A DNA stretch of 64,000 bases from Candidatus Marinacidobacterium sp. (GCA_965204755.1 OZ242011.1:3289656-3353655), one strand, 5' to 3'; numbered from the stretch's first letter, positions 6,344 to 42,037 are shown. Notes: generated from the sequence alone by a model not told the origin. Numbers and translations: made by a program.

Positions 6344-6353
6344 TGCTTGAAGA

Positions 6354-27839: not shown

Positions 27840-27939
27840 GGACGCCCGCGCGGCGCGGCGGATGGATGTCCGCGCCGCCGCCGCGCCCGGTCTCGACCGC
27901 CCTCTTGCGGCCGGGCGAGGCGCGGGCTAATCTTCCTAC

Positions 27940-28013
27940 CGCACTTCCCCCCCTCGGGATCGTGTCCGGATCGGCAACCGGTTGCCTTTCTGGATACCCC
28001 GGGGGCGATTGCC
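27940..28013 (+). repeat. copy 1 of a diverged ~150-nt tandem element (candidate sRNA); conserved core
   Basis: CGCACTT-C7-TCGGGATCGTGTCCGGATC-GGCAACCGGTTGCC-TTTCTGGATACCCCGGGGGCGATT, preceded by TTGCGG-N17-CTAATC. Confidence 0.5.
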
Positions 28014-28439
28014 TTGAGATGGCGGTTGCGCAATGCGGGTTCCGCGTCATCGGGGGGTGCTTCGCGGTCTCAGCCGGTCGAGGTTGAGCCTCGCTTCGGG
28101 TTTGGCGGCGGGACGAGGGGTTGCGCGTTCGACCCCGGCTCACCCCTTCGGGTCGAGCCTCCCAACCCGAGATGGCCGCTGCGGCGGCCGACCGGCCTCC
28201 GCCCGGTTCTCCGCGCTGGCCCGGCGGAGCCGCCCGAACACGCGGTGCGCGCCGGCGGCCGCCGGCGAGCCCCCGCGGGCTTGATGTCCGGGGAGGCTCT
28301 GGATAGCATCCTCGCTCGCACTAACCCCCCCGGGGATTTCGTCTTGGGCGGCATTCGTCGTTCGTGGCGCCCCCGGGGCATTCGCGTTAAACGGGGCGCC
28401 TGCGCGTCCCGCTTCCCTGAACCCCCGCTAGTATTCCGA

Positions 28440-28510
28440 CCGCACTTAAGCCTCCCGGGATCGTGTCCAGATCCGGCAACCGGTGGCCGCTCCGGGCGCC
28501 CCGGGAGTGA
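28440..28510 (+). repeat. copy 2 of the tandem element (more diverged)
   Basis: CGCACTTAAGCCTCCCGGGATCGTGTCCAGATCCGGCAACCGGTGGCC... preceded by TAGTAT. Confidence 0.45.
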
Positions 28511-28728
28511 TCCTTCTCGTCGGGAGGTGGCCGCCGAGCGATGAGGCTCGGCGAGTCGAGCGGGTTCTGAGCGGAGTCAGGCGTTCCGGCGTTCGGCGTC
28601 GCCTCGCTCCGGCCGTCTCCGACCGTCGCTGCTCCGAGCGGTCGTACCGGTGCCCCCGCCTGCGGGGCGCGTCCGGCCCTCGGGTTCTTCCCGGTGTCGG
28701 GGCGCCAACTGGACTGGGCCCACCACCG

Positions 28729-28760
28729 TCTTGACATCGCGGAGGGTGCCGTCTACTATT
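28729..28760 (+). promoter_or_regulatory. sigma70-like promoter TTGACA-N17-TACTAT driving repeat copy 3
   Basis: Consensus -35 and near-consensus -10 with a 17-nt spacer, read directly from the sequence. Predicted TSS lands at the start of the conserved core. Confidence 0.45.
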
Positions 28761-28764
28761 CCGG

Positions 28765-28838
28765 TTGCACTTACCCCCCCCGGGATCGTGTCCTGATCGG
28801 CAACCGGTTGCCTTTCTGGATACCCCGGGGGCGATTCT
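28765..28838 (+). repeat. copy 3 of the tandem element, with a near-consensus promoter immediately upstream
   Basis: CACTTAC8GGGATCGTGTCCTGATCGGCAACCGGTTGCCTTTCTGGATACCCCGGGGGCGATT. The downstream ~80 nt are also conserved with copy 1. Confidence 0.5.
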
Positions 28839-29076
28839 CTTAACGGGGAGAGGGCGGCTGTCGGGCAAGCGGGTTCGGCGTCGTCGGGGGTGTTCTGAGC
28901 AGGCTCAGCCGGTCGGCGGCTGGGCGGCGCTGCGGATGTGGCGGTTGGGCGAGCACTTGCGAGTTCGTCCTTGGCTCGACCGGTCGGCCGGGCCGCGGAT
29001 GTGACCTCGCGGGCCGCGTCGCGCGTTCGTCTCCTCCGCTGTCTCTCATCCTGTCGCGGATTCGCGCGGAGGGCTC

Positions 29077-29829
29077 GTGTACGAGACGGACCGGCATGGG
29101 GCGCGAGATGCCGCCCCGGATGACGAAGTGGATGATCGGTCCACTCGCCGCAACCGGGTCGGCGGTGTCGCCAGCGAAGTGTCGAACGCGTCCCTTCCGC
29201 CGCTGCCGCTTCAGCGAGCGGCCGTGTTCATCGATGGAAGCAACTGGTACTACGGACTCAGAGGAATCGGGGTTCGCAGCGGCCATCTCCATTATTCGGA
29301 AGTGGCTCGCAAACTCGCCTGCGGCCGGAATGTGTGCGCTGTCCGATACTATGTCGGGAAAGTCACTACGCCTATCGCGACGGCCAAGGCGCAAGACGAC
29401 TTCTTGGCGGCGCTGCGCGAGCAGGGAGTGCGTGTCTCTTTGGGCCGGATGCAGCGCAATCCCATGAGCCGGCGGGCCGCGGATGACCGGAGTCGGCTGG
29501 CTCGCGCCTTCGCGGATCGCGACCATGAGGTTCCGCCCGACCTGATGCGAACGATCGACGCGTTCTGTCGCTCGCGGCCGCCCGAATACCGGGAGAAGCA
29601 GGTGGATACACGGATCGCGGTGGATCTCGTGGACCTGGCGCACCGAGACCGGTACGATGTGGCTTATCTACTCTCCGCAGACGCCGACTTCCTTCCGGCA
29701 GTCCAGGTAGCGCGTCGTCTCGGTAAGGGAGTGTTCGCTGTCGCTCCATCCGGAGGGGACGAACTCAAGGAGGCAGCGACCGGTTTCATAAAGGTCTCGG
29801 CAGACTGGTTCGAGGGCCTGTACGCCTGA
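29077..29829 (+). CDS. NYN-domain (LabA-like/DUF88) PIN-fold ribonuclease
   Basis: AAVFIDGSNWYY ... VDTRIAVDLVDLA ... LLSADADFLPAV motifs. Lower GC. Three possible GTG starts (29077, 29128, 29179). Confidence 0.7.
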   Translation: MYETDRHGARDAAPDDEVDDRSTRRNRVGGVASEVSNASLPPLPLQRAAVFIDGSNWYYGLRGIGVRSGHLHYSEVARKLACGRNVCAVRYYVGKVTTPIATAKAQDDFLAALREQGVRVSLGRMQRNPMSRRAADDRSRLARAFADRDHEVPPDLMRTIDAFCRSRPPEYREKQVDTRIAVDLVDLAHRDRYDVAYLLSADADFLPAVQVARRLGKGVFAVAPSGGDELKEAATGFIKVSADWFEGLYA

Positions 29830-30081
29830 GTAGATCGCGGTTCTCGATGACTCATCGAGACGGCGCCGAGGTCGCGGTCGTCGGCAGGCGACGGATCGCA
29901 GACATAGGCCCGCGCTTAGCTCCGGGTGGCTCCCGTTCTCGCTGCGGCCGCGGAGGCGGGTGGATGCGTACGGGTCTCGGTATCGGAGGCGGATGAGCGC
30001 GTCCGGGCGGGGTGGTCGGATCTGTAGGCGGCAGGGCATACGATCTACCGGCGGCGGCGCATGCGGGGGGAGTTCGGGGTG

Positions 30082-31032
30082 ATGGATGCCCGGCGGGTGG
30101 TTCGGCGGTTGGTTCTCACCGGGGCGGCCGAGGAGGTCGTGGACCCGGGAGGCGGGTTCGCGGTGGCGGGGCGGGCCGGGGACACCGAGATCGCGGTGGC
30201 CGGGGGGCTGCCGCGGACGGCGGCGGCGCGGGCGCGGGGGCTCCGGGCCGCGTGGAGGCGGCGGGTGGGGAACACGCCGCGGACGCTCGTCCTGCTCGCG
30301 GATGATCTCGGTGGGGCTGCGTCCGTCCCGCGGGTGCTCGTCGCCGGGCCGGCGGAGGCCGACGCGGGGCCGTACTCGGTTCCGGCGGAAGCGCTGCTCG
30401 CCGCGGTGGAGGAGTACGCCGAGCGGCCCGACGGGGTGGGGCGGATCCATGCGCTCTCGCGGCAGTTGGAGCGGCTCGCCGGCATCTGCGGCGCGCGGGC
30501 GCGGGCGCCCGAATCCGAAGACTCGTTGGAGCGGCTGCGCGGGACGGAGTGGTGGGAGGGCGCGAGGGAGCGGACGGCCGCGATCCGGCCGGGCGACGGC
30601 TGGCGGGAGATCCTCGGCGCGCTCGGTTACCGGATCGAGCGGCGTCCGGTCGGGTACGCGCTGCGGAGCGGCGGCGGCGCGGTGGCCGCGGTCGTGATTC
30701 CCCGCCGCGACTCGGCCGAGTTCGACGCTTGGGACGACGGCCGTCCTCCCGAAGCGCGGCTCGCGGAACTGGCTCGCGCCGAGGGGGCGGGTCGCGGGAT
30801 GTTCGCCGCCGACGACCGGCTGCGCCGGTTCCGGTTCGACGCGCCGGGCAGCGACGGCGATTGCGGGTGGATCGAACTCGACGCGACCGCGCTCGGCGAG
30901 GAGAATCGACCGTTCCTCGCCCTGCTCGCCGCGGACCCGCTCGAGGTCGCGACCGCTGACGGGCGTTCGGTCGAGCCCGGCGCGCTCGGCCTCGCGACGC
31001 GGGAAGTCGCGGCGTCGCCGGTTTCGGCGTGA
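30082..31032 (+). CDS. standalone paralog of the N-terminal domain of the downstream methyltransferase (function unknown)
   Basis: 316 aa, roughly 45% identical over its full length to residues 1-300 of the 31066..34989 product. Shared blocks: MDA.RVV, RVGN.P..L.LLAD, GPYSVPA, DWWEGA, RPPE.RLA.L, RLR.FRFDA, DWIELDA..L.EE.RPFLAL. Confidence 0.7.
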   Translation: MDARRVVRRLVLTGAAEEVVDPGGGFAVAGRAGDTEIAVAGGLPRTAAARARGLRAAWRRRVGNTPRTLVLLADDLGGAASVPRVLVAGPAEADAGPYSVPAEALLAAVEEYAERPDGVGRIHALSRQLERLAGICGARARAPESEDSLERLRGTEWWEGARERTAAIRPGDGWREILGALGYRIERRPVGYALRSGGGAVAAVVIPRRDSAEFDAWDDGRPPEARLAELARAEGAGRGMFAADDRLRRFRFDAPGSDGDCGWIELDATALGEENRPFLALLAADPLEVATADGRSVEPGALGLATREVAASPVSA

Positions 31033-31065
31033 CGCGCCAGGCCGGAGGACACGGAGTTTCCGACG

Positions 31066-34000
31066 ATGGATGCTGAGCGGGTCGTCAGTACGCTGATCGG
31101 GGACGGGATCGCCGAGGAGGCGAAGCCGCAGGGGGAGTTCGTGCTGTCCGCGCGGATCGGCCGGACGGAGGTCAGCGTTGCCGGATCGCTCTCCGCGGCG
31201 TCGGCGGGCGCGAAGTTGCGGAGCCGGTGGAAGCAGCGGGTCGGGAACAGGCCGCTGAAACTGCTCCTGCTCGCGGATGTGTCGGGCGGCGACGACCGCG
31301 TCGTGGTCGTCGGCCCGTCGAAGGCCGACCAGGGGCCGTATTCCGTCCCGGCCACGGGGCTCTTGGAGAAACTCCGGGCGTTCGCCGATCGACCGGACAA
31401 GGGGGCGCGGCTGCGCTGGCTCACCCGCGAGTTGCAGCGGCTGGGTCTTTCCGGCATTCCCGGAGTTCTGGTGCGGGGTCTGCTGACCGAGCACACGCTG
31501 GAACGCTGGCGGGAGCGCGACTGGTGGGAGGGCGCGAAGCGGACGACCGCCGCCGTCGGGTCGGGAGACACTTGGCGGGACCTCTTCGGCAAACTCGGCT
31601 ACGAGTTGGAACAACAGCCGGAGGGCTACTTTCTGCGGGCCGGGGCGGCGCCGGTCGCGGCGGCGATCGCGTTCAGCGAGTCGGACCAGTTCGACCGCTT
31701 CGACGAAAACAACCGCCCGCCCGAGGGACGGCTCGCCGACCTGTGCGCGTCCGCGAACCTGCGCTACGGGATACTCGCGGCCCGCGGGAGGTTGCGCCTC
31801 TTCCGGTTCGATGCGCTGGACGGGAGCGGCGCCTCCGACTGGATCGAACTCGACGCCGCCGAACTCCGGGAAGAGGATCGGCCGTTCCTCGCCCTCTTCG
31901 CCTCCGAGTCGCTGGTTCCTGACGGTCGCTTCGATGCGGTGCTGAGCGACTCGCGCCGATACGGGGTGGAACTCTGGAAGCGGCTGGACAACCGCATCCG
32001 GGACCGCGCGCTCCCGGTGCTTGCCGAGGAGATGGAGGTCTGGGCGAAGGCAACCGGACTCGATCTGTCGGACCCGGCAGTCCGCAAGGACCTGGAACAG
32101 GCCTCCCTGACGCTGGCGTTCCGGCTGTTGTTCGTTCTCTACGCCGAGAGCGCCGGGTATCTGCCGATGAGCAACGCCGAGTACGAGGGTGCCAGTCTCA
32201 CGAGACTCGTACGGGAAGCGAGGCGGACGAGGGATCGGCTCGACGACAAGTCCACGGCGCTGTGGCTCCGGTTCGTGGTGCTGGTGCAGGCCATGCGCGG
32301 CGGCAACTCTGCCTGGAAGGTGCCGGCCTACAACGGAGCCCTGTTCTCCTCGGACGCTTTCCTCGGGGCGGAGACCCTGGAGCGCCTGTCGCTTCGGGAT
32401 CCCGGGTTCGGCAGCGTCCTGACACTGCTCGGTTGGGACGAGAAGCACGATTGCGGCGTGGACTACTCCACCATCGAGATCGGCCATTTGGGACACATCT
32501 ACGAGTCCCTGCTCACTCGGCAACTGACGCTGGCGCAGCGGGACCTGGTGTACGACGCGAAGAAGGACCGGTACCGCCCGCCGAAATTCAGCGAAGCCAG
32601 GGAGCCCGTCGTTTCCGCCGGGTCGCTGCTCTGGCAAACCCATCTCGGCGGAAGGAAGGCCGGGGGCGTGTACTACACCCCGTCCCCGCTGGTGCGGCAC
32701 CTCGTTGAGCGGGCGGTCGCGCCGGCGTTCGAGCGGCACCTCGACCAAGTGCGGAAGACGGCGGAGACCGACCCGGAGAGCGCCGCCGACCAGTTGCTCG
32801 ATTTCGCCGTGCTCGACCCGGCGTGCGGGAGCGCCCACTTCCTCGTGGAAGTCTTGGATCGTCTCGCCGACTTGACGGCTCGCTTCCTCGGAAACCAGCC
32901 GCTCCCGGCGATCGCGGCGCGCATGGAGACTCTGCGCGCCGCCGCCGGAAGCGACAGCGGAATCCGGGACATGACGCTACTGCGCCGTCTTCTGCTGAAG
33001 CACTGCATCTACGGCGTGGATGTGAGTCCGATGGGCGTCGAGATCGCCACCCTGTCGCTTTGGTTGGCCGCGTTCGTGCCCGGTCTCTCGCTGTCCTACC
33101 TCGGGCGGAATGTCATTCGCGGAAACTCGCTGCTCGGAGTCGCCGATCGGGAAACCGTGGTGAAGCCGCACGCGTTCGAGAGCGATGAACTCCGGGAAAG
33201 TCTGAAGAATGCAGCGGAGGCGGCCGCCGAGTTGGCTGACAATCCGGACCGGACTCCCGAGGAGTATGACCAGAGTTCGGCGGCGGACCATGCCGCCCAA
33301 ACGTTCGCGGCGGGTGCGAAGCGACTCTTCGATCTGTGGACTGCCGAGGCGGAGGTTTCGGACTGCCGGAGGTATCTTGGGGGTCGGGGCAAAGCGATTC
33401 TCGACGACGATCTCGACGATCGTGGTCGGGAGCTTGTACCAGCGGCCGCCGACTACGCCCGGCGATGGGATGTCCTTCACTGGCCGGTCGCCTTCCCCCA
33501 TGTCTTCGCGCGGGAGCGGCCGGGATTCGACGCTGTTGTCGGCAATCCTCCGTGGGAAGAGGTCACTGTCGAGGAACTCGACATCTATGTGATGGTGAGT
33601 CCCGGACTGAACACGCTTCCGGAGGATCAGCGGCTCCTGGCGGTCGCCGAACTCGACGAACAGGATCCGGCGCTGCGGTCGCGCGTTCTTCGGGAGAAGG
33701 GCCGGGCGAGGACTCAGAGGCGGGGACTCGGTGTCGGAGAATACGAAGGCTCCCCCGGCGATCCAGACCTCTACAAGTACTTCTGCCAGCGCTACCGGAA
33801 ACTGCTGCGGGCCGACGGGGCGTTCGGTGTCGTCCTGCCGAGGACGGCTTTCAGCGCCAAGGGGTCGGCGAAGTTCCGCGAGTGGCTCTACGGTCAGATC
33901 ACGGTAGATCGGGTCGATTTCTTGGTGAACACGAAGCAGTGGGCCTTCGACAGCACGCCGAAGTACACGATCGCCCTGTTGGCGGCACGGAACCGGAGGT

Positions 34001-34989
34001 CGCCACCGAGTCACCGGGCGGAGTTCGCGGGCACGGCTGATTCGCCCGAGGCCTGGAGGAGGCAAGTGTCGCAAGATGGCGTCGGTCTTGCGGCAGGGTG
34101 CTTCGGCCCCGAATGGGAGACGCCCCTCGTTCGTTCGCAGGACGAAGCGGATCTGCTTGAACGAGTTCGTCGCGGTTCGCGATTCCCGCTGGGGTCGGGA
34201 AGTCGGTGGTGGTGCTTTCCCGTGGCCGAACTTCATGAAACGAACGACAGACCCCTTTGGCTGGCGCAGACCTCCGGTCTTCCGCTCTGGAAGGGTGCGA
34301 GTTTCGGACCGTACGAGCCAAGAGGGACGGACGGCCGTCATTTCCCGCAGGAGGAGGAGTTGCTCCGCCGCAAACTCCACAAGCGCTCGCCGGGCAGCGG
34401 CTCACTGCTTGGACGAAAGTCCAAAACAGCACGCCAAGCCGCGGTGCGGAAGGAGGTGAGACGCGCCCGCGTCGCCTTTCACGATGTAGCCCGTGCGACG
34501 GACCCGCGCACCGTAGTCGCCTGCCTGATCCCCCCTACAGTTCTCCTGACCAACACGGCGCCCTATCTCGCGTTCCTTCACGGTGCGGAGAGGGAGCAGG
34601 CAGCCTGCCTGGGTGTCCTGAACAGTCTTCCGTTCGATTGGCAGGCCCGGCGGTTCGTCGAACTCCATGTGAACTTTTTCATCCTTGAGGGATTGATCGT
34701 TCCGGACATGGAGGAGAGCGACTTCGAGGTCGTTGCCGGGGCGTCGGCGCGGCTTTCCGCCGTGGACGACCGTTTCGCGGACTTTGCGAAGGCTACCGGG
34801 GTCAAGTGCGGTCCCGTCGAGGAGGATGAACGGAGCGAATTGCGAGCGGAGATCGATGCCCGCGTCGCCCGCGCCTGGAAACTCGACGAGAACGACCTCG
34901 ACCTGATGTTCGCCGATTTCAGCGAGTCGGCGGTGTCGGCGGACTACCGGGAAGCCGTGCGAATCCGTCTGCGGGCGTTGAACGCCTGA
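31066..34989 (+). CDS. PglX/Eco57I-like N6-adenine DNA methyltransferase (1307 aa) with extra N-terminal domain
   Basis: Helical region typical of PglX and type IIG enzymes (LLFVLYAESAGYLP...YNGALF...IGHLGHIYESLL). Motif I LDPACGSAHFL and motif IV VVGNPPW, followed by a long C-terminal target-recognition-like region. Confidence 0.8.
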   Translation: MDAERVVSTLIGDGIAEEAKPQGEFVLSARIGRTEVSVAGSLSAASAGAKLRSRWKQRVGNRPLKLLLLADVSGGDDRVVVVGPSKADQGPYSVPATGLLEKLRAFADRPDKGARLRWLTRELQRLGLSGIPGVLVRGLLTEHTLERWRERDWWEGAKRTTAAVGSGDTWRDLFGKLGYELEQQPEGYFLRAGAAPVAAAIAFSESDQFDRFDENNRPPEGRLADLCASANLRYGILAARGRLRLFRFDALDGSGASDWIELDAAELREEDRPFLALFASESLVPDGRFDAVLSDSRRYGVELWKRLDNRIRDRALPVLAEEMEVWAKATGLDLSDPAVRKDLEQASLTLAFRLLFVLYAESAGYLPMSNAEYEGASLTRLVREARRTRDRLDDKSTALWLRFVVLVQAMRGGNSAWKVPAYNGALFSSDAFLGAETLERLSLRDPGFGSVLTLLGWDEKHDCGVDYSTIEIGHLGHIYESLLTRQLTLAQRDLVYDAKKDRYRPPKFSEAREPVVSAGSLLWQTHLGGRKAGGVYYTPSPLVRHLVERAVAPAFERHLDQVRKTAETDPESAADQLLDFAVLDPACGSAHFLVEVLDRLADLTARFLGNQPLPAIAARMETLRAAAGSDSGIRDMTLLRRLLLKHCIYGVDVSPMGVEIATLSLWLAAFVPGLSLSYLGRNVIRGNSLLGVADRETVVKPHAFESDELRESLKNAAEAAAELADNPDRTPEEYDQSSAADHAAQTFAAGAKRLFDLWTAEAEVSDCRRYLGGRGKAILDDDLDDRGRELVPAAADYARRWDVLHWPVAFPHVFARERPGFDAVVGNPPWEEVTVEELDIYVMVSPGLNTLPEDQRLLAVAELDEQDPALRSRVLREKGRARTQRRGLGVGEYEGSPGDPDLYKYFCQRYRKLLRADGAFGVVLPRTAFSAKGSAKFREWLYGQITVDRVDFLVNTKQWAFDSTPKYTIALLAARNRRSPPSHRAEFAGTADSPEAWRRQVSQDGVGLAAGCFGPEWETPLVRSQDEADLLERVRRGSRFPLGSGSRWWCFPVAELHETNDRPLWLAQTSGLPLWKGASFGPYEPRGTDGRHFPQEEELLRRKLHKRSPGSGSLLGRKSKTARQAAVRKEVRRARVAFHDVARATDPRTVVACLIPPTVLLTNTAPYLAFLHGAEREQAACLGVLNSLPFDWQARRFVELHVNFFILEGLIVPDMEESDFEVVAGASARLSAVDDRFADFAKATGVKCGPVEEDERSELRAEIDARVARAWKLDENDLDLMFADFSESAVSADYREAVRIRLRALNA

Positions 34990-35002
34990 TCGTCGTCGCG
35001 CG

Positions 35003-38000
35003 GTGAGTCGGCGTCCGCTTCCGCCGCCCCCCGCGGCCGTGTCGGTGCGTCCGACCCTGCTCGACAACCTCGAATTCGGGACCCACCGAGTCGGACTCGG
35101 CGCTCTCGCCTCCGACGATCCGAAGGACGCTCCGGTGTCCGTCGCCACCGGGTATGTGAATCTCGGGGGGCTCGCGGCGCTCGCGCAGGTCACGGAGACG
35201 CCGGCACGGCCGGTGCGGCTCCTGATCGGGGTCGCGCCTCCGCCCGGCGGCGGAGGAGCGCGGGCTTTGGTCAGGAAGTTCTTCGACGAGGCGCTTCAGG
35301 AGGTCCGCCGCGACCGGAACTTCGGGCGCTTTCCGCCGAGCCGGGCGAGGAGGAGTATCGGCCCGGTGGCCGAGTGGCTGAAGCGGCCCGAGGTCGAAGT
35401 CCGGCGGTACCAGGGAGCGTTCCTCCACGGGAAGGCGTACTTGTTCGGCGACGCCGGCAACCCGCGGGCGGCGCTCGTGTCCTCGGCGAACCTGACCGCC
35501 GCCGGGATGGAGAAGAACCTGGAACTCGGCTTGGTCGAGTACGGCCCGGACACCGTGGCCAAGGCCATCCGCTGGTTCGACCGCCTGTGGAAGTCCGACC
35601 AGGCCCGGGACTTCAAGGAGACGCTGGAGAAGTTGCTGGGCGCGGACCCGCTCCTCGACGCGCTGGAAGATCCGCGGGCGATCTACCTCCGGATCCTGCT
35701 CGAGTACTTCGGGGACGAGTTGGAGAAGGATCCGCCGCGGCCGCAGGCGGTCACCCTGGCCGACTTCCAGTGGGACGGGTTCCGGCGGGCGCTCCGGATC
35801 CTGGACAAGTGCGGCGGCGTGATCTACGCGGACGGCGTCGGCACCGGCAAGACGGAGATCGGGCTGGCGCTGCTGGAGCGGTACGCGGTCGGGGAAGGCA
35901 AACACGCGCTGGTGGTGGCGCCGGCGCAACTGGTGAAGACCTGGCAGGACCGGATCGACGAGGGAAACCTGCCGGGCCGGGTCGTTTCCTTCCACCAGTT
36001 GGCCGACGACCGGCGACTGAACCCGGAGGGGCGCGGCCGACACCTCCCCGCCGACAAGGACACCTACCGGCTGATCGTCGTGGACGAAGCGCACGCCTTC
36101 CGCAATCCGGACACCGGTTGGCACCGGGCGCTCTCCCGGCTGCTCGGCGGGAAACCCAAGCACGCGGTCTTCCTCACGGCCACGCCGATCAACAACGGCC
36201 TGCCGGACCTCTTCCACCTGGTGATGGCCTTCGCCCGCCACGACGCGGCGTTCGCCGAGCACGGGATCCGCTCGCTGCGGGCGCTGTTCCGGTCGGCGGG
36301 GGCGTTCAGCCGGGACGGGGAGAACCTGGACGCGGACCGCCTGTTCCCGCTCGCCGACCTGGTGAGCGTCCGGCGCGACCGGGCGTTCATCGAGAAGCAC
36401 TACCCGGACGCCAAGTTCCCGGACGGGAGGCCGCTGCGCTTCCCGAAGCCTCGACTCGAGACGGCGCGCTACGCGATAGACGAGGTATGGCCCGGGCTGG
36501 TCGCCGAGATCACTGACGCCGTGAACGAACTGACCCTCGCCCGCTACCGCCCCGAGCACTACGCGGTCGGTGAGGCGAGGGAAGAGGACCGCAACGATAC
36601 GGGGATCACCGGCCTGCTGCGCTCGGCGATCCTCAAGCGGTTCGAGTCCTGCCACGAGTCCTGCCGCCTGACCGTGGAGCGCATGGAGAAGGCGCACGAG
36701 GCGTTCCTCGCGGCCTGGGATGCCGGGTTCGTTCCCGGCTCCGAGGCGCTGCGGGAAATCGTGGAGGCGGACCTCGACGAGACGGCGGCGGCCGCGTGGC
36801 TCGGCGACGAGATCGAAGACGGACGGAGCCGACCGGTCGCGGACTTCGACGCCCTGCTTCGGCAACAGGTGGCGGACGACCTGGAGCGCCTGCGGAGGTT
36901 CCACCGGCGCCTGGAAGAGACCCGGCAGGGCGACGATCCGAAACTCCGGCTGCTGGTCCGGCTGATCGAGGAGTCGCCGTCGGAAAAGGTCGTCGTCTTC
37001 TCCGCGTTCGCCGATACGGTGCGCTATCTCGACGAAAAACTCCCGGAGGTCGTGGACGGACGGCGCCGCGCAGTCGTGATCGGCGAGGAGACCGCGCCCG
37101 ACGAGCGGATGCGCCGCCTCGAGAGTTTCGCCCCGAAGAGCGTCGTCGGCGAGGATCACGAACTCCCGGACGAAGTGCAGGAAGTGGATCTCCTGCTCAG
37201 CAACGATGTCCTCTCGGAAGGGCAGAACCTGCAGCAGGCGGGAGCGGTCGTCAGTTACGACTTCCCGTGGAACCCGCAGCGGGTCGTCCAGCGCTACGGG
37301 CGGGTCATCCGGCTCAAGAGTCCGCACGACGAGGTGTATCTCACGACCATGCTGCCGGCGCCGGGAGACCTCGAACTCCTGCTGAAACTCGAGGCGGCCA
37401 TCCGGCGCAAACTGACCGCGGCGCGGCTCTACGGCATGGATGTGGAGGTGGTCGAAGGCGGGGCGCCGGAAGCGGAGTTGATGTCCTTCGCGGAGCGGCT
37501 CGCCGCCCACGACCCGACCCTGCTCCGCGAATCCGTCGGATCCGGCATCGGGGCGGCGTTCAGCGGGGAATCGCTGCGCGCGGACTTCCATCGCGCCCTC
37601 ATGGAAGGCGAACTGCGGAAACTGCGCAACCTGCCTTGGGGCGTGGGCGCCGCGTTCCGCCTGCCGGCGCCGGGCCGGTCCGGAGCGGCGACGGCAGCCC
37701 CCGGCGAATCGTGGGCCCGGACGCCGGGAGTCTTCTTCGCCTGCCGGACGAAGCGGGACGACCGCTATTGGCGTTTCGTACCGCTCGAGGGTTCGGGGAC
37801 CGGGCCGGAACCGGAGGCGCTCCACCTGCGGCGGATCGCGCCGCCGCGAGGAGTGTCCGGTCTGACCTCCCTGCCGGAGGAGGCGGACCTGGAACGGGCT
37901 TGGGAAACCGCCGCGGAGTCCATCGTGAAGGAGCACAACGAACTCGCCGAGGCGAGTTTGGAGGAGGCGTCGGTGGGGCCGCGGCAGGCGTGGGCGCTCG

Positions 38001-38284
38001 GCGTGCTCGACGACCCCGACCACGGCCTCTCCGACGAGGAAGCCGACCATGCTTCGGAGGCGCTCCGCGTGGGCCGCAGCCAGTCCATCCGCCGCGAGTT
38101 GGGCCGGATCGAGAAGGAACTCGAGGACAAGGCCATCTCCCTCTCCGAGGCCGCCGGCCGCATCGTGGCCCTCGTGAAGTCGGAGGGCCTCCGCCCGGTG
38201 GAGCCCCCCAAACCCCTCGAACCCATCGAAGGCGAACAAGACTTGGGCGTCGTCTGCTGGATGGCCCTCCTTCCTTCGGCGTAG
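35003..38284 (+). CDS. PLD-family nuclease fused to SNF2-family helicase (1093 aa)
   Basis: N-terminal HKD motif FLHGKAYLF...SSANLTAAGMEKNLELG. Helicase motifs DGVGTGKT, VVDEAHAFRN, LLSNDVLSEGQNLQ, VVQRYGRVIR. GTG start 14 nt after the methyltransferase stop. Confidence 0.8.
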   Translation: MSRRPLPPPPAAVSVRPTLLDNLEFGTHRVGLGALASDDPKDAPVSVATGYVNLGGLAALAQVTETPARPVRLLIGVAPPPGGGGARALVRKFFDEALQEVRRDRNFGRFPPSRARRSIGPVAEWLKRPEVEVRRYQGAFLHGKAYLFGDAGNPRAALVSSANLTAAGMEKNLELGLVEYGPDTVAKAIRWFDRLWKSDQARDFKETLEKLLGADPLLDALEDPRAIYLRILLEYFGDELEKDPPRPQAVTLADFQWDGFRRALRILDKCGGVIYADGVGTGKTEIGLALLERYAVGEGKHALVVAPAQLVKTWQDRIDEGNLPGRVVSFHQLADDRRLNPEGRGRHLPADKDTYRLIVVDEAHAFRNPDTGWHRALSRLLGGKPKHAVFLTATPINNGLPDLFHLVMAFARHDAAFAEHGIRSLRALFRSAGAFSRDGENLDADRLFPLADLVSVRRDRAFIEKHYPDAKFPDGRPLRFPKPRLETARYAIDEVWPGLVAEITDAVNELTLARYRPEHYAVGEAREEDRNDTGITGLLRSAILKRFESCHESCRLTVERMEKAHEAFLAAWDAGFVPGSEALREIVEADLDETAAAAWLGDEIEDGRSRPVADFDALLRQQVADDLERLRRFHRRLEETRQGDDPKLRLLVRLIEESPSEKVVVFSAFADTVRYLDEKLPEVVDGRRRAVVIGEETAPDERMRRLESFAPKSVVGEDHELPDEVQEVDLLLSNDVLSEGQNLQQAGAVVSYDFPWNPQRVVQRYGRVIRLKSPHDEVYLTTMLPAPGDLELLLKLEAAIRRKLTAARLYGMDVEVVEGGAPEAELMSFAERLAAHDPTLLRESVGSGIGAAFSGESLRADFHRALMEGELRKLRNLPWGVGAAFRLPAPGRSGAATAAPGESWARTPGVFFACRTKRDDRYWRFVPLEGSGTGPEPEALHLRRIAPPRGVSGLTSLPEEADLERAWETAAESIVKEHNELAEASLEEASVGPRQAWALGVLDDPDHGLSDEEADHASEALRVGRSQSIRRELGRIEKELEDKAISLSEAAGRIVALVKSEGLRPVEPPKPLEPIEGEQDLGVVCWMALLPSA

Positions 38285-38407
38285 CAGGGGCGGTTCGCTC
38301 CCTTCCGGGCAGAACGGAGGAACGCGCGGCGGGCCCGGCTGACGGTCGCGACTGCCGGGAAGCCGCGGGGCCTGCTCGGTATGGAGAGGCCGGCTAGACT
38401 GGTTCCC

Positions 38408-38830
38408 ATGCGCCCGGAAATCGGTTCGGGGCCGTTCCGACCCGGAACCGGCCGCCCCCCGCCGTATCTCGCCGGGCGGGAGGAAGAGCAGGACCTCTTC
38501 CTGATGCTGCTCGCCGACTTGAAGCCGTTTTCGACCGGCAGCGGGACGACTACTACGCCGACCGCCACGACGAACTGGAAACTGCGGCTGCTGCGCCCGG
38601 CGCGAGAGGTCGCGGAGGCATTCGAGTCGCAACCACTCCTCTCCGGCGAGGCACTGGAGGCCGCCATCCGGCGAGGTTTCGGCGAGGACGCCGGCGACGA
38701 CCAAGTGGACGCGACGGCGCAGCAGTTCCGCCATCTCGGCTACATCTGGCGGGCCGGAACCCGTCGGCCGTGGGAACCGGGCATTCCCAGCCTGATGGAC
38801 TACATCCTCCGGGAAGTCCCCGCGCCGTAA
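38408..38830 (+). pseudogene. internally deleted, frameshifted duplicate of the downstream AAA ATPase gene
   Basis: The first ~40 codons match the ATPase N-terminus (MRPEIGSGPFRPGTGRPPPYLAGREEEQDLF vs VRSEIGGGPFQPGSGVLPPHLAGREREQDLF). The last ~80 codons match its C-terminus almost exactly (LRLLRPAREVAEAFESQ...PGIPSLMDYILREVP). The intervening ~850 nt are missing. A linker runs in a shifted frame and a 2-nt deletion restores it. Confidence 0.55.
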
Positions 38831-38943
38831 GCCGGCGAGCCGCCTCCGGAATCTCTGCGGTGCGGGAAGCGCTCCACGACCCCCGAGAACCACGAGGGAT
38901 TCGCCGCCGCTCGGCGCCGGGACTTCCGGCTAAACTGGTTCTC

Positions 38944-40065
38944 GTGCGCTCTGAAATCGGTGGGGGGCCGTTCCAGCCCGGTTCCGGCGTACTCCCGCCG
39001 CACCTCGCCGGGCGGGAGCGGGAGCAGGACCTCTTCCGGACGCTGCTCGCCCGACTCGACCGCGGCGAGGCGCCGCCCGGAGAAGTCATCCTCTACGGGC
39101 CGCGCGGCAACGGCAAGACGGCGCTCCTCGCGTGGGTCAGCGAGTTTGCGAGCGAGTCCACCGGCGTGGATGTCGAGGAACGCACGCCGTCGGAGTTCGA
39201 TTCCCCGGCCGGACTGGCCGAGTTGTTGTTGCCGAAGTCCTGGTGGAAGACCGTCGGCCCCGAGGAGGTCGGCGTTCGGGGGATCACTTGGCGCCCGGGC
39301 CGGCGATCGGCAGCCCCGACCCCCGCCGAAGTCCTCGCTCTTCGGGCCGGGAGGAAACCGTTGGTCGTGCTTCTCGACGAAGCGCACACTCTCGACCCCG
39401 AAGTCGGCCGCGCTCTCTTGAACGCGGCGCAGAAGGTCCGGCGCTCGGCGCCGTTTCTCCTGGTGTTGGCGGGAACTCCGAACCTTCGCGACCACTTGGC
39501 GTCCATGGGCGCCTCTTTCTGGAACCGCGGCCGGAAGTTGCGGATCGGACGCCTGGACGAGAGCGCCGCGGCGGAGGCGATACGGGAGCCGCTGGCGGCC
39601 GAAGACATCACCATCGCGGACGATGCGTTGGAGCACTTGGTTCGCGACAGCCACGGGTATCCGTTCTTCGTCCAACTCTGGGGCGAAGCGGTGTGGGCTC
39701 GCGCCGTCGAGACCTCACGGCAACAGGTCGTCTCCGAGGATGTGCGCGCCTGCCAAACCGTTTTCGACGAGCAGCGGGACGACTACTACGCCGACCGTCA
39801 CGACGAATTGGAAGAACTGCGGCTGCTGCGCCCGGCGCGGGCGGTCGCGGAGACCTTCGAGTCGCGTCCCGCCCTCTCCGGCGGCGAACTGGAGGCCGCC
39901 ATCCGGCGAGGTTTCGGCGAGGACGCCGGCGATGACGAAGTGAACGCGGCGGCGCAGCAGTTCCGCCATCTCGGCTACATCTGGCGGGCCGGAACCCGTC
40001 GGCTGTGGGAACCGGGCATTCCCAGCCTGATGGACTACATCCTCCGGGAGGTCCCCCCGCCATAG
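38944..40065 (+). CDS. AAA+ ATPase (AAA_16/ORC-Cdc6-like P-loop NTPase)
   Basis: ILYGPRGNGKTALL Walker A, VVLLDEAHTL Walker B. GTG start preceded by a duplicated upstream region. Confidence 0.7.
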   Translation: MRSEIGGGPFQPGSGVLPPHLAGREREQDLFRTLLARLDRGEAPPGEVILYGPRGNGKTALLAWVSEFASESTGVDVEERTPSEFDSPAGLAELLLPKSWWKTVGPEEVGVRGITWRPGRRSAAPTPAEVLALRAGRKPLVVLLDEAHTLDPEVGRALLNAAQKVRRSAPFLLVLAGTPNLRDHLASMGASFWNRGRKLRIGRLDESAAAEAIREPLAAEDITIADDALEHLVRDSHGYPFFVQLWGEAVWARAVETSRQQVVSEDVRACQTVFDEQRDDYYADRHDELEELRLLRPARAVAETFESRPALSGGELEAAIRRGFGEDAGDDEVNAAAQQFRHLGYIWRAGTRRLWEPGIPSLMDYILREVPPP

Positions 40066-40085
40066 AATTCCGGCGGGAGGCGGCG

Positions 40086-41501
40086 ATGTTGACGGGGATG
40101 CGCCTGCGGGGCTTCAAGTCGTGGAGGGATACGGGCGACATCGAGTTACGGCCGATCACCGCGTTCTTCGGCCTGAACGGTTCCGGGAAGACGAGTCTCC
40201 TGCAGGCGCTGCTGCTGCTGAAACAGACGGCGGAATCGCCGGGCCGCGGGCAGGTCTTCCACTTCGGGGACGGTCGGTCGGCGGTGGACCTCGGCGACTT
40301 CACCGATGCGGTGCATCGGCGCGATGCCGATGCCGCGCTGGGCGTTTCCCTCGATTGGACCGCGGACTCCGAGGTACGCGTTCGCGACGGCGACTTGCGC
40401 GAAGTCGCCGTCTCGGATTCCCTCGGGTTCTCGGTGGTCGCGGCGCGGGAAGGCGAGAGATCGCCGGAGACGACCGTGCGCGAGATTACTCATCGCGTCG
40501 GGAACTCCTGCTTCGGGATGCGGCGCGGGAAACGGGGTTACCGGTTGTTCGCCGATGCCGGGGAGTTTCGCTTCCGCAGGCGGCGGCGCCATGCGGAGAC
40601 TCTTCCCCCGCCGGTGTCCTGCTACAGGTTTCCGGCCGCTTCTCGCCAGGTGTTCGAGAACGCCGACTGCCTCTCCGCTCTCGAGCGTCCCCTGGAGCGG
40701 CAGTTGGACCGCCTCTACTACCTGGGGCTCTCGAGGGCGCGTCCGGAGCGACGGTATGTTTGGGTCGGCGCCCGCCCGCCGGATGCGGGGCGGTCGGGGG
40801 AGTTGGCCGTGGCGGTCCTCCTGGCGGCGCGCGCGGACGCAGACGGGATCGCGACGGAGCAGGGCGGGGACGGGCGCAGCCCGGAGGAGCAGGTGGAGCA
40901 CTGGCTGCGGGAAATGGGCCTCGTCCATACCTTCCGCGTCGCGCCGCTGGTCCCGGGACTGTTCGAAGTGCTCGTTCGCCAGACGCCGCACTCGGCGGAA
41001 GTCCCGATCACCGGTGCGGGTTTCGGGGTCGCGCAGGCGCTTCCGGTGTTGGCGCTCTGCTTCCACGCCCCCGAGGGTTCCACCATCCTCCTCGAACAGC
41101 CGGAAACCCGACTGCATCCGTCGGCCCAGTCCGCGCTCGCCGACGCGCTCCTCGACGCGCGGCGGCGCCGGGGGATCCAGTTCCTGATCGAGAGCCACAG
41201 CGAGCACTTGCTGCGGCGGCTCCAGCGGCGCGTCTCCGATGAGACTCTCTCCCACGAGGAAGTCGGGCTGTGGTATTGCGAGAACGAAGAAGGGGAGTCG
41301 TGCCTCACCGACTTGTCGCTGGATCGTTTCGGCGCCACCGGGTATTGGCCGGAGGGGCTCTTCGGAGACCAGTTCCGCGAAGTGGTCGAGATCGCCGAGA
41401 ATCGCCTGCGCCGGAGCATGGCCGAGGAAGAGAAGGAACCGGGCGCGCCCGCCTCGCCCTCGCGCCCGGAAGCGGGCGGGAGCGTGCCGGAAGCCGATTG
41501 A
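40086..41501 (+). CDS. ABC-type ATPase (AAA_21) with C-terminal DUF3696-like domain
   Basis: FFGLNGSGKTSLLQALLLL Walker A; LLEQPETRLHP D-loop; ESHSEHLL H-loop; C-terminal LWYCENEEGESCLTDLSLDRFGATGYWPEGLFGDQF. Confidence 0.7.
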   Translation: MLTGMRLRGFKSWRDTGDIELRPITAFFGLNGSGKTSLLQALLLLKQTAESPGRGQVFHFGDGRSAVDLGDFTDAVHRRDADAALGVSLDWTADSEVRVRDGDLREVAVSDSLGFSVVAAREGERSPETTVREITHRVGNSCFGMRRGKRGYRLFADAGEFRFRRRRRHAETLPPPVSCYRFPAASRQVFENADCLSALERPLERQLDRLYYLGLSRARPERRYVWVGARPPDAGRSGELAVAVLLAARADADGIATEQGGDGRSPEEQVEHWLREMGLVHTFRVAPLVPGLFEVLVRQTPHSAEVPITGAGFGVAQALPVLALCFHAPEGSTILLEQPETRLHPSAQSALADALLDARRRRGIQFLIESHSEHLLRRLQRRVSDETLSHEEVGLWYCENEEGESCLTDLSLDRFGATGYWPEGLFGDQFREVVEIAENRLRRSMAEEEKEPGAPASPSRPEAGGSVPEAD

Positions 41502-41513
41502 GCGGCCGCGGCT

Positions 41514-41870
41514 CTACGCGCCGCTGCCGGTCAGGTCGCCGGACAGGCGGGCGCTCACCAGGCGGTTCAGGCTGACGCCTTCCTCCGCCGCCCGCAGTGC
41601 GAGAGCGCGGTGGACTTCCGGCGGGAGGCGGACGAGGAACCGGCCGCTGTAGCGCCGGTCGGCGAGCGGGGTCGGGATGTGTTCACCGTGCGCCTCCAGG
41701 TCGCGCAGAACCTCGGCCACCAGCGAGCGGATACCGGAGAAGGCGCGGTTCGGGGTGGCGGCGAGCCGACTGAGCGACGGGAACTCCAAGCAGAGCCCCA
41801 CATGCTCCCCGTCCTCGGGAGACCAGGTGACGCGGTAGGTGTAGCGGTCGCGGATCGGCGGTCGGTTCAC
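41514..41870 (-). CDS. hicB: HicB-family antitoxin (RNase-H-like fold + RHH), orphan (no hicA)
   Basis: YRVTWSPEDGEHVGLCLEFPSL ... SGRFLVRLPPEVHRALALRAAEEGVSLNRLV, typical HicB architecture. Confidence 0.7.
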   Translation of the reverse strand: MNRPPIRDRYTYRVTWSPEDGEHVGLCLEFPSLSRLAATPNRAFSGIRSLVAEVLRDLEAHGEHIPTPLADRRYSGRFLVRLPPEVHRALALRAAEEGVSLNRLVSARLSGDLTGSGA

Positions 41871-41874
41871 GGGA

Positions 41875-41896
41875 CGATACCGGTAATGGTATCGAG
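41875..41896 (-). promoter_or_regulatory. perfect inverted repeat CGATACC-GGTAAT-GGTATCG directly upstream of the hicB start codon (candidate operator)
   Basis: 7-bp arms and a 6-bp spacer, read directly from the sequence. Begins about 5 nt upstream of the start codon. Confidence 0.4.
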
Positions 41897-42037
41897 ATTC
41901 CGACGGGGGCGGCGTCCGCGCCCGCCGGACACTCCCCGCCCCGGCGGTTGCGCCGGGCGGGGCGCGCCCGGTACGCTCGGGGCCCCCCGAGGGGGCGCCG
42001 GGGCCGCGGGGCGTCGGCGGGAACCGAGGAGTCGGGA

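What the first reader, a model, noticed from the sequence alone, without database searches (positions are those of the whole stretch)
29077..41896. Composite lower-GC defence island with an unusual methyltransferase-helicase-ATPase architecture
The VWA gene (core-like) and the coxS cluster flank a ~13-kb block. Gene order in the block: a NYN RNase; a standalone paralog of an unknown N-terminal domain; a 1307-aa PglX-like N6-adenine methyltransferase carrying that domain; a PLD-SNF2 nuclease-helicase; a decayed duplicate of an ATPase followed by the intact ATPase; an ABC/DUF3696 ATPase; and an orphan HicB. PglZ and BrxC (BREX), DrmA and DrmB (DISARM) and a type III Res subunit are all absent. 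The set does not fit a canonical BREX, DISARM or type I-III RM layout. It most resembles a helicase-methylase-ATPase triad with extra modules. This is the best candidate for an undescribed system in the window.
Basis: partly seen in the sequence, partly recalled or inferred. Interest (0 to 1): 0.8.

Follow-up and report, generated by a model that had tools for sequence, protein, structure and literature searches.

The report
Methylase plus motor-nuclease defence island
The 13-kb block is a real, acquired defence island whose conserved core is only two genes: a PglX-like DNA adenine methylase and a PLD-nuclease/SNF2-motor protein. This pair is widespread, unnamed, and related to restriction-like systems such as MANTIS, DISARM and BREX, while the surrounding ATPases, RNase and HicB are separate, partly decayed add-ons.

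Summary
The "helicase-methylase-ATPase triad" reading is not supported.

- **Conserved unit.** It is a two-gene operon: a 1307-aa gamma-class N6-adenine methyltransferase (PglX-like body, restriction-endonuclease-fold N-domain) followed by a 1093-aa PLD(HKD)-SNF2 protein. The pair is adjacent in 23 of 24 related loci that have downstream DNA. It spans several bacterial phyla and also sits on a Mycobacterium plasmid and a haloarchaeal megaplasmid, annotated "hypothetical protein" plus "helicase-related protein".
- **Allele pattern.** Alleles swap the methylase's C-terminal half (about 50% identity) while the nuclease-motor stays 93% identical. MANTIS shows a comparable pattern of variable TRD and conserved effector.
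- **Missing components.** DUF499, DUF3780, PglZ, BrxC, DrmA and DrmB are all absent.
- **Add-ons.**
  - The AAA_16 ATPase belongs to a family that forms tandem arrays elsewhere.
  - The ABC ATPase is a HEC-03 ATPase that has lost its PIN partner.
  - The NYN gene is specific to the closest clade.
  - HicB has no HicA.

**Verdict:** an unnamed two-gene variant of methylation-based, motor-nuclease restriction, sitting in a mosaic island. Moderately interesting, and untested experimentally.

The parts
27926..28837 (+). Three copies of an ~86-nt intergenic element (27926-28011, 28427-28513, 28752-28837) upstream of the island. Copy C follows the only strong sigma-70-like promoter in the region (TTGACA-17-TACTAT, 28731-28759). 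This is a possible island promoter and leader; whether it belongs to the system is uncertain.
   Evidence: The hairpin has z -2.97. There is no Rfam match. The same three copies occur only in the orthologous spacer of L001/L002.
29077..29829 (+). NYN-domain (PIN-like) predicted RNase. It is an accessory gene specific to the closest clade.
   Evidence: Pfam NYN 1.9e-22. PADLOC HEC-09 4.7e-23, partial match. It lies next to the pair only in L001/2, L003/4, L005, L008 and L116. dS against L001 is 0.43, versus 0.10-0.18 for its neighbours, which indicates allele replacement.
30082..31032 (+). Standalone paralog of the methyltransferase N-terminal domain (316 aa). It is a duplicate specific to this lineage.
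   Evidence: 48% identity to methylase aa 1-288. GC3 is 0.90. dN/dS against L001 is 0.40. It is present only in the same-site relatives L001/L002 and L116 and is rare as a standalone protein in 1.8 billion representatives. It lacks the family's near-invariant GLLTxHTLxR block.
31066..34989 (+). Core gene 1: a 1307-aa gamma-class N6-adenine DNA methyltransferase. Layout: restriction-endonuclease-fold N-domain (aa 1-~290), long helix, PglX-like methylase body, and a variable C-terminal half holding the presumed target-recognition domain (aa ~700-1150).
35003..38284 (+). Core gene 2: a 1093-aa protein with an N-terminal PLD/HKD nuclease domain, an SNF2-type SF2 ATPase motor, and a ~300-aa C-terminal region of unknown fold.
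   Evidence: Pfam PLDc_2, SNF2-rel_dom and Helicase_C. PADLOC 'HKD+Snf2' 3.8e-38 and DrmD 8e-27. H142/K144/N163, GTGKT 280-284, DEAH 361-364 and QRYGRVIR 763 are at least 95% conserved in 20 family members. The gene starts 13 nt after the methylase stop.
38381..38830 (+). Decayed copy of the AAA_16 ATPase gene. Its N and C ends are retained and the ATPase core is deleted, with a frame change.
   Evidence: There is no gene call at this position in L001. A different 77-aa remnant sits after the intact copy in L113.
38944..40065 (+). AAA_16/AAA_22 P-loop ATPase (373 aa from the GTG at 38944). It belongs to a family that forms tandem arrays and is not a conserved partner of the pair.
   Evidence: Pfam AAA_16 2.8e-09. 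No PADLOC hit. 2714 homologs, several per contig. Arrays of 4-5 copies in L088 and L089. Start codon.
40086..41501 (+). ABC-type ATPase with DUF3696. This is the ATPase component of the HEC-03 defence pair, here without its PIN partner.
   Evidence: PADLOC HEC-03B 1e-112, full length. A 156-191-aa partner (PADLOC HEC-03A, about 1e-35) lies immediately downstream in L113, L114 and L115, and its 89%-identical 191-aa homolog lies there in L116. There is no trace of that partner in the window.
41514..41870 (-). Orphan HicB-family antitoxin-like protein with a ribbon-helix-helix C-terminus.
   Evidence: Pfam HicB 5e-16. No HicA-sized ORF nearby. The segment 41536-42100 is 99.6% identical in DNA to L116, while the adjacent ATPase genes are only 75% identical.

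Best explanation
The block is a mosaic defence island inserted between a VWA gene and the cox operon. Its functional core is a two-gene, restriction-modification-like system.

**Proposed mechanism**
- The 1307-aa PglX-like methyltransferase reads a short DNA motif through its variable C-terminal half. It marks host DNA by N6-adenine methylation (inferred).
- On unmarked incoming DNA, the site-bound methyltransferase licenses the PLD-SNF2 protein (inferred).
- A single HKD motif per chain implies a dimer forming one nuclease site. The SNF2 motor supplies ATP-driven translocation (inferred by analogy with MtsD of MANTIS and with type III and type ISP enzymes).
- The N-terminal domain has a restriction-endonuclease fold but lacks a conserved D...(D/E)xK triad. 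It is probably a non-catalytic DNA-contact or partner-contact module (inferred).

**Everything else is an add-on**
- A NYN RNase specific to the closest clade.
- A maintained duplicate of the N-domain specific to this lineage.
- A two-copy array of an AAA_16 ATPase, with one copy decayed.
- A HEC-03 ATPase that lost its PIN effector.
- An orphan HicB.
For: **Shown**
- The pair is adjacent and co-oriented in 23 of 24 related loci with downstream DNA, in unrelated genomic contexts. Spacing is tight: a 13-nt gap here and a 4-nt overlap in L005.
- The pair also occurs at 28-34% identity on a Mycobacterium plasmid and a Halorubrum megaplasmid.
- Catalytic motifs are intact. Those of the PLD-SNF2 protein are at least 95% conserved across 20 members, and those of the methylase are invariant across its 21- and 40-sequence alignments.
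- Window versus L001: methylase aa 200-650 is 98-100% identical and aa 700-1150 about 50%. The PLD-SNF2 protein is 93% identical. dS is 0.48 for the whole methylase against 0.10 for its N-domain. MANTIS likewise shows variable TRD with a conserved effector, and there the methylase directs the nuclease.
- Fold evidence: the body is PglX/BrxX-like and the N-domain is HsdR/BpuSI nuclease-like.
- Other genomes carry ABC-ATPase genes (with a protease and a DUF3226 gene in L018) or a transposase embedded between the two genes. [quoted passage not shown]
- Add-on status: the ATPases and HicB accompany the pair only at this one chromosomal site. AAA_16 arrays occur elsewhere. HEC-03A is missing.
- An empty site exists in relatives.
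Against: - There is no experimental evidence for methylation, restriction or phage protection by any member of this family.
- In MANTIS, the closest characterised relative by architecture, the methylase cannot act without a DUF499 ATPase and a small co-factor. A loader-free version is therefore an assumption.
- The N-domain retains two near-invariant acidic residues (E35, D71) and could be a non-canonical nuclease. That would make the methylase an autonomous type IIG enzyme.
- PLD-SF2 enzymes such as SauUSI attack modified DNA. The direction of discrimination is therefore inferred, not shown.
- One related locus (L026) holds only a truncated methylase with no partner within 10 kb.
Confidence: 0.62

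Rival explanations
1. The methyltransferase is a self-sufficient type IIG/IIL restriction-modification enzyme, with nuclease, methylase and specificity in one chain. The PLD-SNF2 protein is then an independent or auxiliary second nuclease.
For: - The PADLOC type IIG model matches at 1.2e-127 over aa 216-1288.
- The N-domain has the fold of the HsdR and BpuSI nuclease domains.
- MmeI and DrdV appear among the structural matches.
- Milman et al. list Cj0031-like type II RM genes next to PLD+SNF genes.
Against: - No D...(D/E)xK triad is conserved in 41 aligned N-domains. There is no conserved lysine in the first subdomain.
- The type IIG profile's first ~230 positions, where the nuclease would lie, are not matched.
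- The near-obligate adjacency, tight spacing and conserved order of the two genes are not expected for independent enzymes.
- The best structural match is PglX, which has no nuclease.
Confidence: 0.15
2. In this lineage the N-domain paralog, methylase, PLD-SNF2 protein and AAA_16 ATPase form one multi-component MANTIS/Hma-like system. The ATPase would be the loader and the small paralog the co-factor.
For: - The four components parallel MtsB, MtsC, MtsD and MtsA.
- The AAA_16 protein has faint ORC/Cdc6-type similarity, the clade to which MtsA's ATPase domain belongs.
- AAA_16 follows the PLD-SNF2 gene in all four alleles of this chromosomal site.
- The paralog is under purifying selection, with dN/dS 0.40.
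Against: - The four alleles sit at one chromosomal site in close relatives, so shared inheritance could explain the linkage.
- The pair occurs without any ATPase or paralog in all other contexts.
- The AAA_16 family occurs in arrays of 4-5 copies away from any methylase.
- The AAA_16 protein has no DUF499 and no PADLOC hit.
- One copy here is a wreck.
Confidence: 0.1
3. The pair is a decayed remnant of a class 1 DISARM or ARMADA-type locus, or the block is a chance juxtaposition with no working system.
For: - The nearest distant relatives of the methylase (24-30% identity) mostly have an SNF2-type helicase match about 2-3 kb upstream of the methylase. In the one locus examined, L073, a YprA/MZB helicase lies just upstream of that SNF2 gene.
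- Several island genes are visibly decayed.
Against: - The two-gene architecture is stable across phyla and in archaea, with invariant catalytic residues.
- dN/dS is 0.21-0.32.
- Gene order differs from DISARM (helicase downstream and fused to PLD), and the methylase has its own N-domain, which the distant relatives lack.
Confidence: 0.04
4. The pair is not a defence system. It would be a chromosomal epigenetic or DNA-remodelling module, with methylation-dependent regulation and an SNF2 remodeller.
For: - In L007 the pair sits among housekeeping genes with no other defence gene nearby.
- RapA-like SNF2 proteins act on RNA polymerase.
Against: - The HKD nuclease residues are invariant.
- Distribution across phyla and on plasmids is patchy.
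- Specificity-region swapping occurs between alleles.
- Defence-type ABC ATPase genes are embedded in or flank the pair.
Confidence: 0.05

Closest known systems
MANTIS (Gao_RL; type-2 DUF499-centred BREX-related system): MtsA, MtsB, MtsC, MtsD
   Same: - An N6-adenine methylase is paired with a PLD(HKD)+SF2 motor nuclease.
- The PADLOC 'HKD+Snf2' model hits the window protein at 3.8e-38.
- Alleles differ in the methylase specificity region while the nuclease stays conserved.
   Different: - There is no DUF499 AAA+ ATPase and no DUF3780 protein, here or in other family loci. In MANTIS both are required for methylation.
- The methylase here has an extra restriction-endonuclease-fold N-domain.
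- The helicase is SNF2/RapA-like by sequence.
Class 1 DISARM (DrmD SNF2, DrmMI, DrmA, DrmB, DrmC PLD) and ARMADA
   Same: - The methylase core matches DrmMI models at 1.2e-65.
- The second protein combines DrmC-like PLD and DrmD-like SNF2 parts.
- Most distant methylase relatives have an SNF2-type helicase match about 2-3 kb upstream; L073, the one locus examined, also has a YprA/MZB helicase.
   Different: - DrmA and DrmB (DUF1998/MZB) are absent.
- PLD and SNF2 are fused in one protein and encoded downstream.
- NCBIfam DrmD scores 112 bits against a cut-off of 610.
BREX methyltransferase PglX/BrxX
   Same: It is the best structural match of methylase aa 289-1307 (9ewz, 8c45; E about 1e-15). 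It has the same gamma-class NPPW chemistry.
   Different: - There is no PglZ, BrxC, BrxA, BrxB or BrxL in the block.
- NCBIfam BREX PglX models score 16-35 bits against cut-offs of 400-900.
Type IIG/IIL enzymes (BpuSI, MmeI, DrdV) and type III / type ISP RM
   Same: - Domain order: nuclease-fold N-domain, helical spacer, gamma methylase, specificity domain.
- Functional logic: a methylase recognises the site and a helicase-nuclease cuts.
   Different: - The catalytic triad is not conserved in the N-domain.
- The nuclease-motor is a separate PLD-SNF2 protein, not a PD-(D/E)xK Res subunit.
HEC-03 and HEC-09 (Hma-embedded candidates, Payne et al. preprint)
   Same: - The ABC ATPase matches the HEC-03 ATPase model end to end at 1e-112.
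- NYN matches HEC-09 at 4.7e-23.
   Different: - The HEC-03 PIN partner, which is required for defence, is absent from the window.
- HEC-09 gave no protection when tested, and only its C-terminal part is matched.

Membership tests
MANTIS / Gao_RL / type-2 BR system | DUF499 AAA+ ATPase (MtsA) | tested here: not met
   No DUF499 hit in any island protein (Pfam). The AAA_16 protein has no PADLOC hit. Family loci elsewhere have no ATPase.
MANTIS / Gao_RL / type-2 BR system | Standalone DUF3780 protein (MtsB) | tested here: not met
   No Pfam, PADLOC or NCBIfam hit for the 316-aa paralog or any other small ORF.
MANTIS / Gao_RL / type-2 BR system | HKD nuclease fused N-terminally to an SF2/SNF2 ATPase (MtsD) | tested here: met
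   PLDc_2, SNF2 and Helicase_C domains. PADLOC 'HKD+Snf2' 3.8e-38. Motifs are invariant. The model that hit is not proven to be the Gao_RL model.
MANTIS / Gao_RL / type-2 BR system | N6-adenine methyltransferase that sets specificity (MtsC) | tested here: inconclusive
   An N6A methylase is present and has a variable specificity half. Homology to MtsC itself could not be tested because no sequence was available.
Class 1 DISARM | DrmA helicase and DrmB (DUF1998/MZB) | tested here: not met
   Neither domain occurs in the block. An MZB-bearing YprA-type helicase is present in the distant-relative locus L073.
Class 1 DISARM | DrmMI, DrmD and DrmC at family level | tested here: not met
   Only partial hits: DrmMI 1.2e-65 over aa 513-830; NCBIfam DrmD 112 bits against 610; DrmC 32 bits against 133.
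BREX (types 1-6) | PglZ phosphatase and BrxC/PglY ATPase | tested here: not met
   No hit in any island protein.
BREX (types 1-6) | PglX methyltransferase | tested here: inconclusive
   The fold is PglX-like. Curated PglX models score far below their cut-offs.
Hma / type-1 BR system | SNF2 helicase with C-terminal PD-(D/E)xK nuclease (HmaA), a methylase (HmaB; called m5C in the founding paper and N6-MTase in the BREX-related reclassification) and a DUF499 ATPase (HmaC) | tested here: not met
   The HmaA model matches only the helicase C-lobe at 1.5e-21. The nuclease here is an N-terminal PLD and the methylase is N6A (NPPW). There is no DUF499.
Type IIG restriction-modification enzyme | Active nuclease domain in the same chain as the methylase and specificity domain | tested here: inconclusive
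Type III restriction-modification | Res subunit: SF2 helicase with a C-terminal PD-(D/E)xK nuclease, paired with a beta-class Mod | tested here: not met
   The ResIII hit is the generic SF2 N-lobe only, at 6e-06. The nuclease is PLD. The methylase has gamma-class motif order.
HEC-03 | ABC ATPase plus adjacent PIN-domain protein, both required | tested here: not met
   The ATPase matches at 1e-112. The PIN partner is present in L113-L116 but absent from the window: tblastn E > 0.1, and a 1.09-kb stretch has no counterpart.
HicAB toxin-antitoxin | HicA toxin gene adjacent to HicB | tested here: not met
   No candidate ORF of 30 aa or more with that role lies around 41480-42100.

The most novel reading that the evidence does not exclude
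The methylase plus PLD-SNF2 pair is a self-contained, loader-free class of ATP-dependent restriction system. It spans several bacterial phyla, haloarchaea and plasmids. In it, a PglX-like methylase carrying an inactivated nuclease-fold domain directly licenses a dimeric PLD motor nuclease. That would be a minimal counterpart of MANTIS, BREX and DISARM, currently annotated as "hypothetical protein" plus "helicase-related protein". In this lineage the duplicated N-domain would act as a separate regulator of that hand-off.
Probability: 0.45. Interest if true: 0.6.

Novelty: new variant of a known kind. Interest (0 to 1): 0.5.

Why it matters
Methylation-based defences with motor nucleases (BREX, DISARM, MANTIS) are hard to dissect because they have four to six parts, and the step that links site recognition to cleavage is unclear. 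A conserved two-gene version would be the simplest available model of that step. It has one PglX-like methylase and one PLD-SNF2 effector, with natural alleles that differ mainly in the specificity half.

It would also add an unannotated defence type to genome surveys of Actinomycetota, Acidobacteriota and haloarchaea. RefSeq calls the two plasmid examples "hypothetical protein" and "helicase-related protein".

The island itself shows how such cores collect, exchange and lose add-on modules.

Tried and rejected
- **Hma membership rejected.** Hma needs a DUF499 ATPase and a helicase with a C-terminal PD-(D/E)xK nuclease.
- **Sequence search of solved structures.**
  - The family profile found nothing at E <= 1e-3.
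  - The single methylase sequence found only E 0.27 hits.
  - The PLD-SNF2 protein hit only generic SNF2/RapA cores.
- **Standalone paralog as a widespread family: no.** There were 83 hits among 1.8 billion representatives. Those of about 1300 aa are methylases, and many of the shorter ones may be methylase fragments.
- **Viral carriage.** No family member occurs in IMG/VR. Only 22-36% identical distant relatives were found.
- **Rfam.** The VWA-NYN spacer gave nothing.
- **HicA and HEC-03 PIN.** No HicA-sized ORF was found near HicB, and no trace of the HEC-03 PIN gene was found anywhere in the window.
- **Failed or unavailable calls.**
  - One look-up (P0101) was not on record.
- **Literature.** Searches found no named system with this gene pair. 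The only trace is a table note of type II RM genes next to PLD+SNF genes.
Full report
**Observation**

The window is about 72% G+C, so long spurious ORFs are common. I filtered ORFs by third-position GC.

| Gene | Coordinates | Note |
|---|---|---|
| NYN | 29077-29829 | |
| Paralog of the methylase N-terminus | 30082-31032 | ORF opens at 30061; 48% identity over 298 aa, E 7e-70 |
| Methyltransferase, 1307 aa | 31066-34989 | |
| PLD-SNF2 protein, 1093 aa | 35003-38284 | |
| ATPase remnant | 38381-38830 | |
| AAA_16 ATPase | 38944-40065 | I move the start to the GTG at 38944 |
| ABC/DUF3696 ATPase | 40086-41501 | |
| HicB | 41514-41870, minus strand | |

Domain calls come from Pfam. The remnant keeps only the first ~45 and last ~105 codons of the neighbouring ATPase gene, with a frame change between them.

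The block is 0.691 G+C against 0.722 for the window. GC3 is 0.71-0.83 in NYN, the methylase and the two ATPases, against 0.93-0.95 in the flanking VWA and cox genes.

Two metagenomic relatives with 80% identical VWA proteins have coxL/coxS, VWA and FmdA contiguous with no block, although VWA is inverted there. The block is therefore an insertion.

**What is conserved**

The methylase has more than 120 full-length relatives at 49% identity or higher. I examined neighbourhoods by exact-protein look-up and by a scan of one genome per species. I then scored every island protein against all fetched loci with tblastn.

- **The pair.** The PLD-SNF2 gene follows the methylase gene, on the same strand, in 23 of 24 family loci that have downstream DNA. 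The exception, L026, holds only the first 658 codons of the methylase.
- **Contexts are unrelated.**
  - L003: phage-type genes (Mu F, P2-like tail genes) flank the pair.
  - L007: between ftsX and an alanine dehydrogenase gene.
  - L006: next to purine-biosynthesis genes.
- **Taxa.** Acidobacteriota, Actinomycetota (Acidimicrobiia, Solirubrobacterales, Streptosporangiaceae), Chloroflexota, Dormibacterota and Longimicrobiales.
- **Plasmids.** At 28-34% identity over the full length of both proteins, the pair also lies on Mycobacterium gallinarum plasmid pJCM6399 and on Halorubrum lacusprofundi pHLAC01. RefSeq calls these genes "hypothetical protein" and "helicase-related protein".
- **NYN.** It accompanies the pair only in the closest clade (L001/2, L003/4, L005, L008, L116).
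- **Other genes.** The N-domain paralog, the AAA_16 ATPase, the ABC ATPase and HicB accompany the pair only in alleles of this same chromosomal site (L001, L113, L116).

**The two core proteins**

*Methylase.*
- It carries motif I (DPACGS, aa 584) and motif IV (NPPW, aa 827) of gamma-class N6-adenine methyltransferases.
- PADLOC's best models are a type IIG enzyme (1.2e-127, aa 216-1288) and DrmMI (1.2e-65, core only). No NCBIfam model reaches its cut-off.
- An AlphaFold model of aa 289-1307 (pLDDT 83.5) is closest to BREX PglX/BrxX (E about 1e-15). CamA, M.BseCI, MmeI, DrdV and LlaGI follow.
- In 41 aligned N-domains I find no conserved D...(D/E)xK. Only E35 and D71 are near-invariant acidic residues in the first subdomain, and no lysine is conserved there. 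I read the domain as probably non-catalytic, but this is inference.

*PLD-SNF2 protein.*
- It has one HKD motif (H142, K144, then SSAN at 160-163). It also has Walker A GTGKT (280-284), DEAH (361-364), TATP (392-395) and QRYGRVIR (763-770).
- All of these are at least 95% conserved in 20 family members.
- By sequence its motor is SNF2/RapA-like.

**Evidence for a specificity-swapping restriction-like system**

Against the allele at the same site in L001:
- Methylase aa 200-650 is 98-100% identical and aa 700-1150 is about 50% identical.
- dS is 0.10 for the N-domain and 0.48 for the whole gene.
- The PLD-SNF2 gene has dS 0.18 and is 93% identical at protein level.

MANTIS shows a comparable pattern: alleles differ within the methylase's target-recognition domain while the nuclease is 99% identical. 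That observation led to the demonstration that the methylase directs restriction.

Elsewhere, genes are embedded between the two core genes or inserted into them:
- L018: an SDH-type protease, an ABC ATPase and a DUF3226 protein.
- L020: an ABC ATPase.
- L021: a YhgA-like transposase.
- L017: an ISL3 transposase interrupts the methylase itself.

**The add-ons**

- **AAA_16 ATPase.** It has 2714 detectable relatives, often several per contig. In L088 and L089 they form tandem arrays of 4-5 paralogs about 60% identical, far from any methylase. The window's intact copy plus wreck is a decaying two-copy array. L113 has a different 77-aa wreck on the other side of its intact copy.
- **ABC ATPase.**
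  - It matches the PADLOC HEC-03 ATPase model end to end at 1e-112.
  - In L113, L114 and L115 it is followed by an overlapping 156-181-aa gene that matches the HEC-03 PIN component at about 1e-35. L116 has an 89%-identical 191-aa homolog in the same position.
  - The window has no trace of that gene.
  - DNA comparison with L116 shows 99.6% identity across HicB and coxS and 75% across the two ATPase genes. About 1.09 kb (PIN plus a 158-aa gene) has no counterpart in the window.
  - Both HEC-03 genes are needed for defence, so this module is probably inactive.
- **HicB.** It has no HicA.
- **NYN.** It matches HEC-09, which gave no protection when tested.
- **N-domain paralog.** It is maintained (dN/dS 0.40, GC3 0.90). 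It has lost the family's most conserved block, GLLTxHTLxR.

**Comparison with known systems**

| System | Defining parts | Result here |
|---|---|---|
| Hma / type-1 BR | Helicase with C-terminal PD-(D/E)xK nuclease, methylase, DUF499 ATPase | Not met |
| MANTIS / Gao_RL / type-2 BR | DUF499 ATPase, DUF3780 protein, N6A methylase, HKD-SF2 nuclease, all four required | The last two have counterparts here; the first two are absent here and throughout the family |
| Class 1 DISARM / ARMADA | Most distant methylase relatives (24-30%) have an SNF2-type helicase match upstream; the one locus examined (L073) also has a YprA/MZB helicase | DrmA and DrmB absent; gene order and fusion differ |
| BREX | Requires PglZ and BrxC | Absent |

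The only prior trace of the pair that I found is a table note of Cj0031-like type II RM genes adjacent to PLD+SNF genes.

**Verdict**

The finding is real and the island is composite, but the unit of interest is a two-gene pair, not a triad. I rate it a new variant of a known kind: methylation-based restriction with a PLD motor nuclease. It is unnamed and unannotated but widespread. Interest is moderate, because the mechanism is inferred by analogy and nothing has been tested experimentally.

Noticed in passing
window 27926-28011, 28427-28513, 28752-28837 (+): There are three copies of an ~86-nt element in the 1.2-kb non-coding spacer between VWA and NYN. Each contains the perfect 14-bp palindrome GGCAACCGGTTGCC. 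Copy C follows a near-consensus promoter (TTGACA-17-TACTAT, 28731-28759), and its transcript would fold into a stable hairpin (z -2.97). The same three copies occur in the orthologous spacer of L001/L002 and nowhere else in the fetched DNA. There is no Rfam match. It may be a small RNA, a leader or an operator.
   Followed up: partly
L088 8736-13977; L089 3-6040; window 38381-40065: The ~375-aa AAA_16/AAA_22 ATPase family forms head-to-tail arrays of 4-5 paralogs, about 60% identical to the window copy, in related metagenome-assembled genomes. It shows recombination wrecks in the window and in L113. Its function is unknown and it matches no PADLOC model. A NYN gene and an IS21 IstB gene lie near the array in L089.
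   Followed up: partly
window 5076-8117 (+): Two genes carry ABC-3C system domains (CTD10; AAA_23 + CTD10 + DUF2326). They lie in the lowest-GC stretch of the window (0.62-0.64). This is probably a second, separate defence locus.
   Followed up: no
window 18432-19577 (+): A 381-aa AAA_21/AAA_15 ABC-type ATPase lies in another lower-GC stretch (0.66-0.68), between a molybdopterin oxidoreductase gene and a mechanosensitive channel gene. Its partner gene was not examined.
   Followed up: no
L132 4916-12273 (M. gallinarum pJCM6399); L133 4823-12381 (H. lacusprofundi pHLAC01): Distant copies of the methylase plus PLD-SNF2 pair sit on a mobilizable actinobacterial plasmid and on a haloarchaeal megaplasmid. 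They are annotated only as "hypothetical protein" and "helicase-related protein". The archaeal copy is flanked by ISH3 transposases.
   Followed up: partly
L090 3146-10648; L091 6858-12352 versus window 25582-44984: In the relatives that lack the island, the VWA gene is inverted relative to FmdA and coxS. Island gain and a local inversion therefore coincide at this site.
   Followed up: no
window 29077-29829 versus L001 7967-8719: Between two otherwise close island alleles, NYN has dS 0.43 and is 78% identical at protein level, while its neighbours are 90-94% identical. NYN has therefore been replaced by recombination, as has the methylase C-terminal half.
   Followed up: partly
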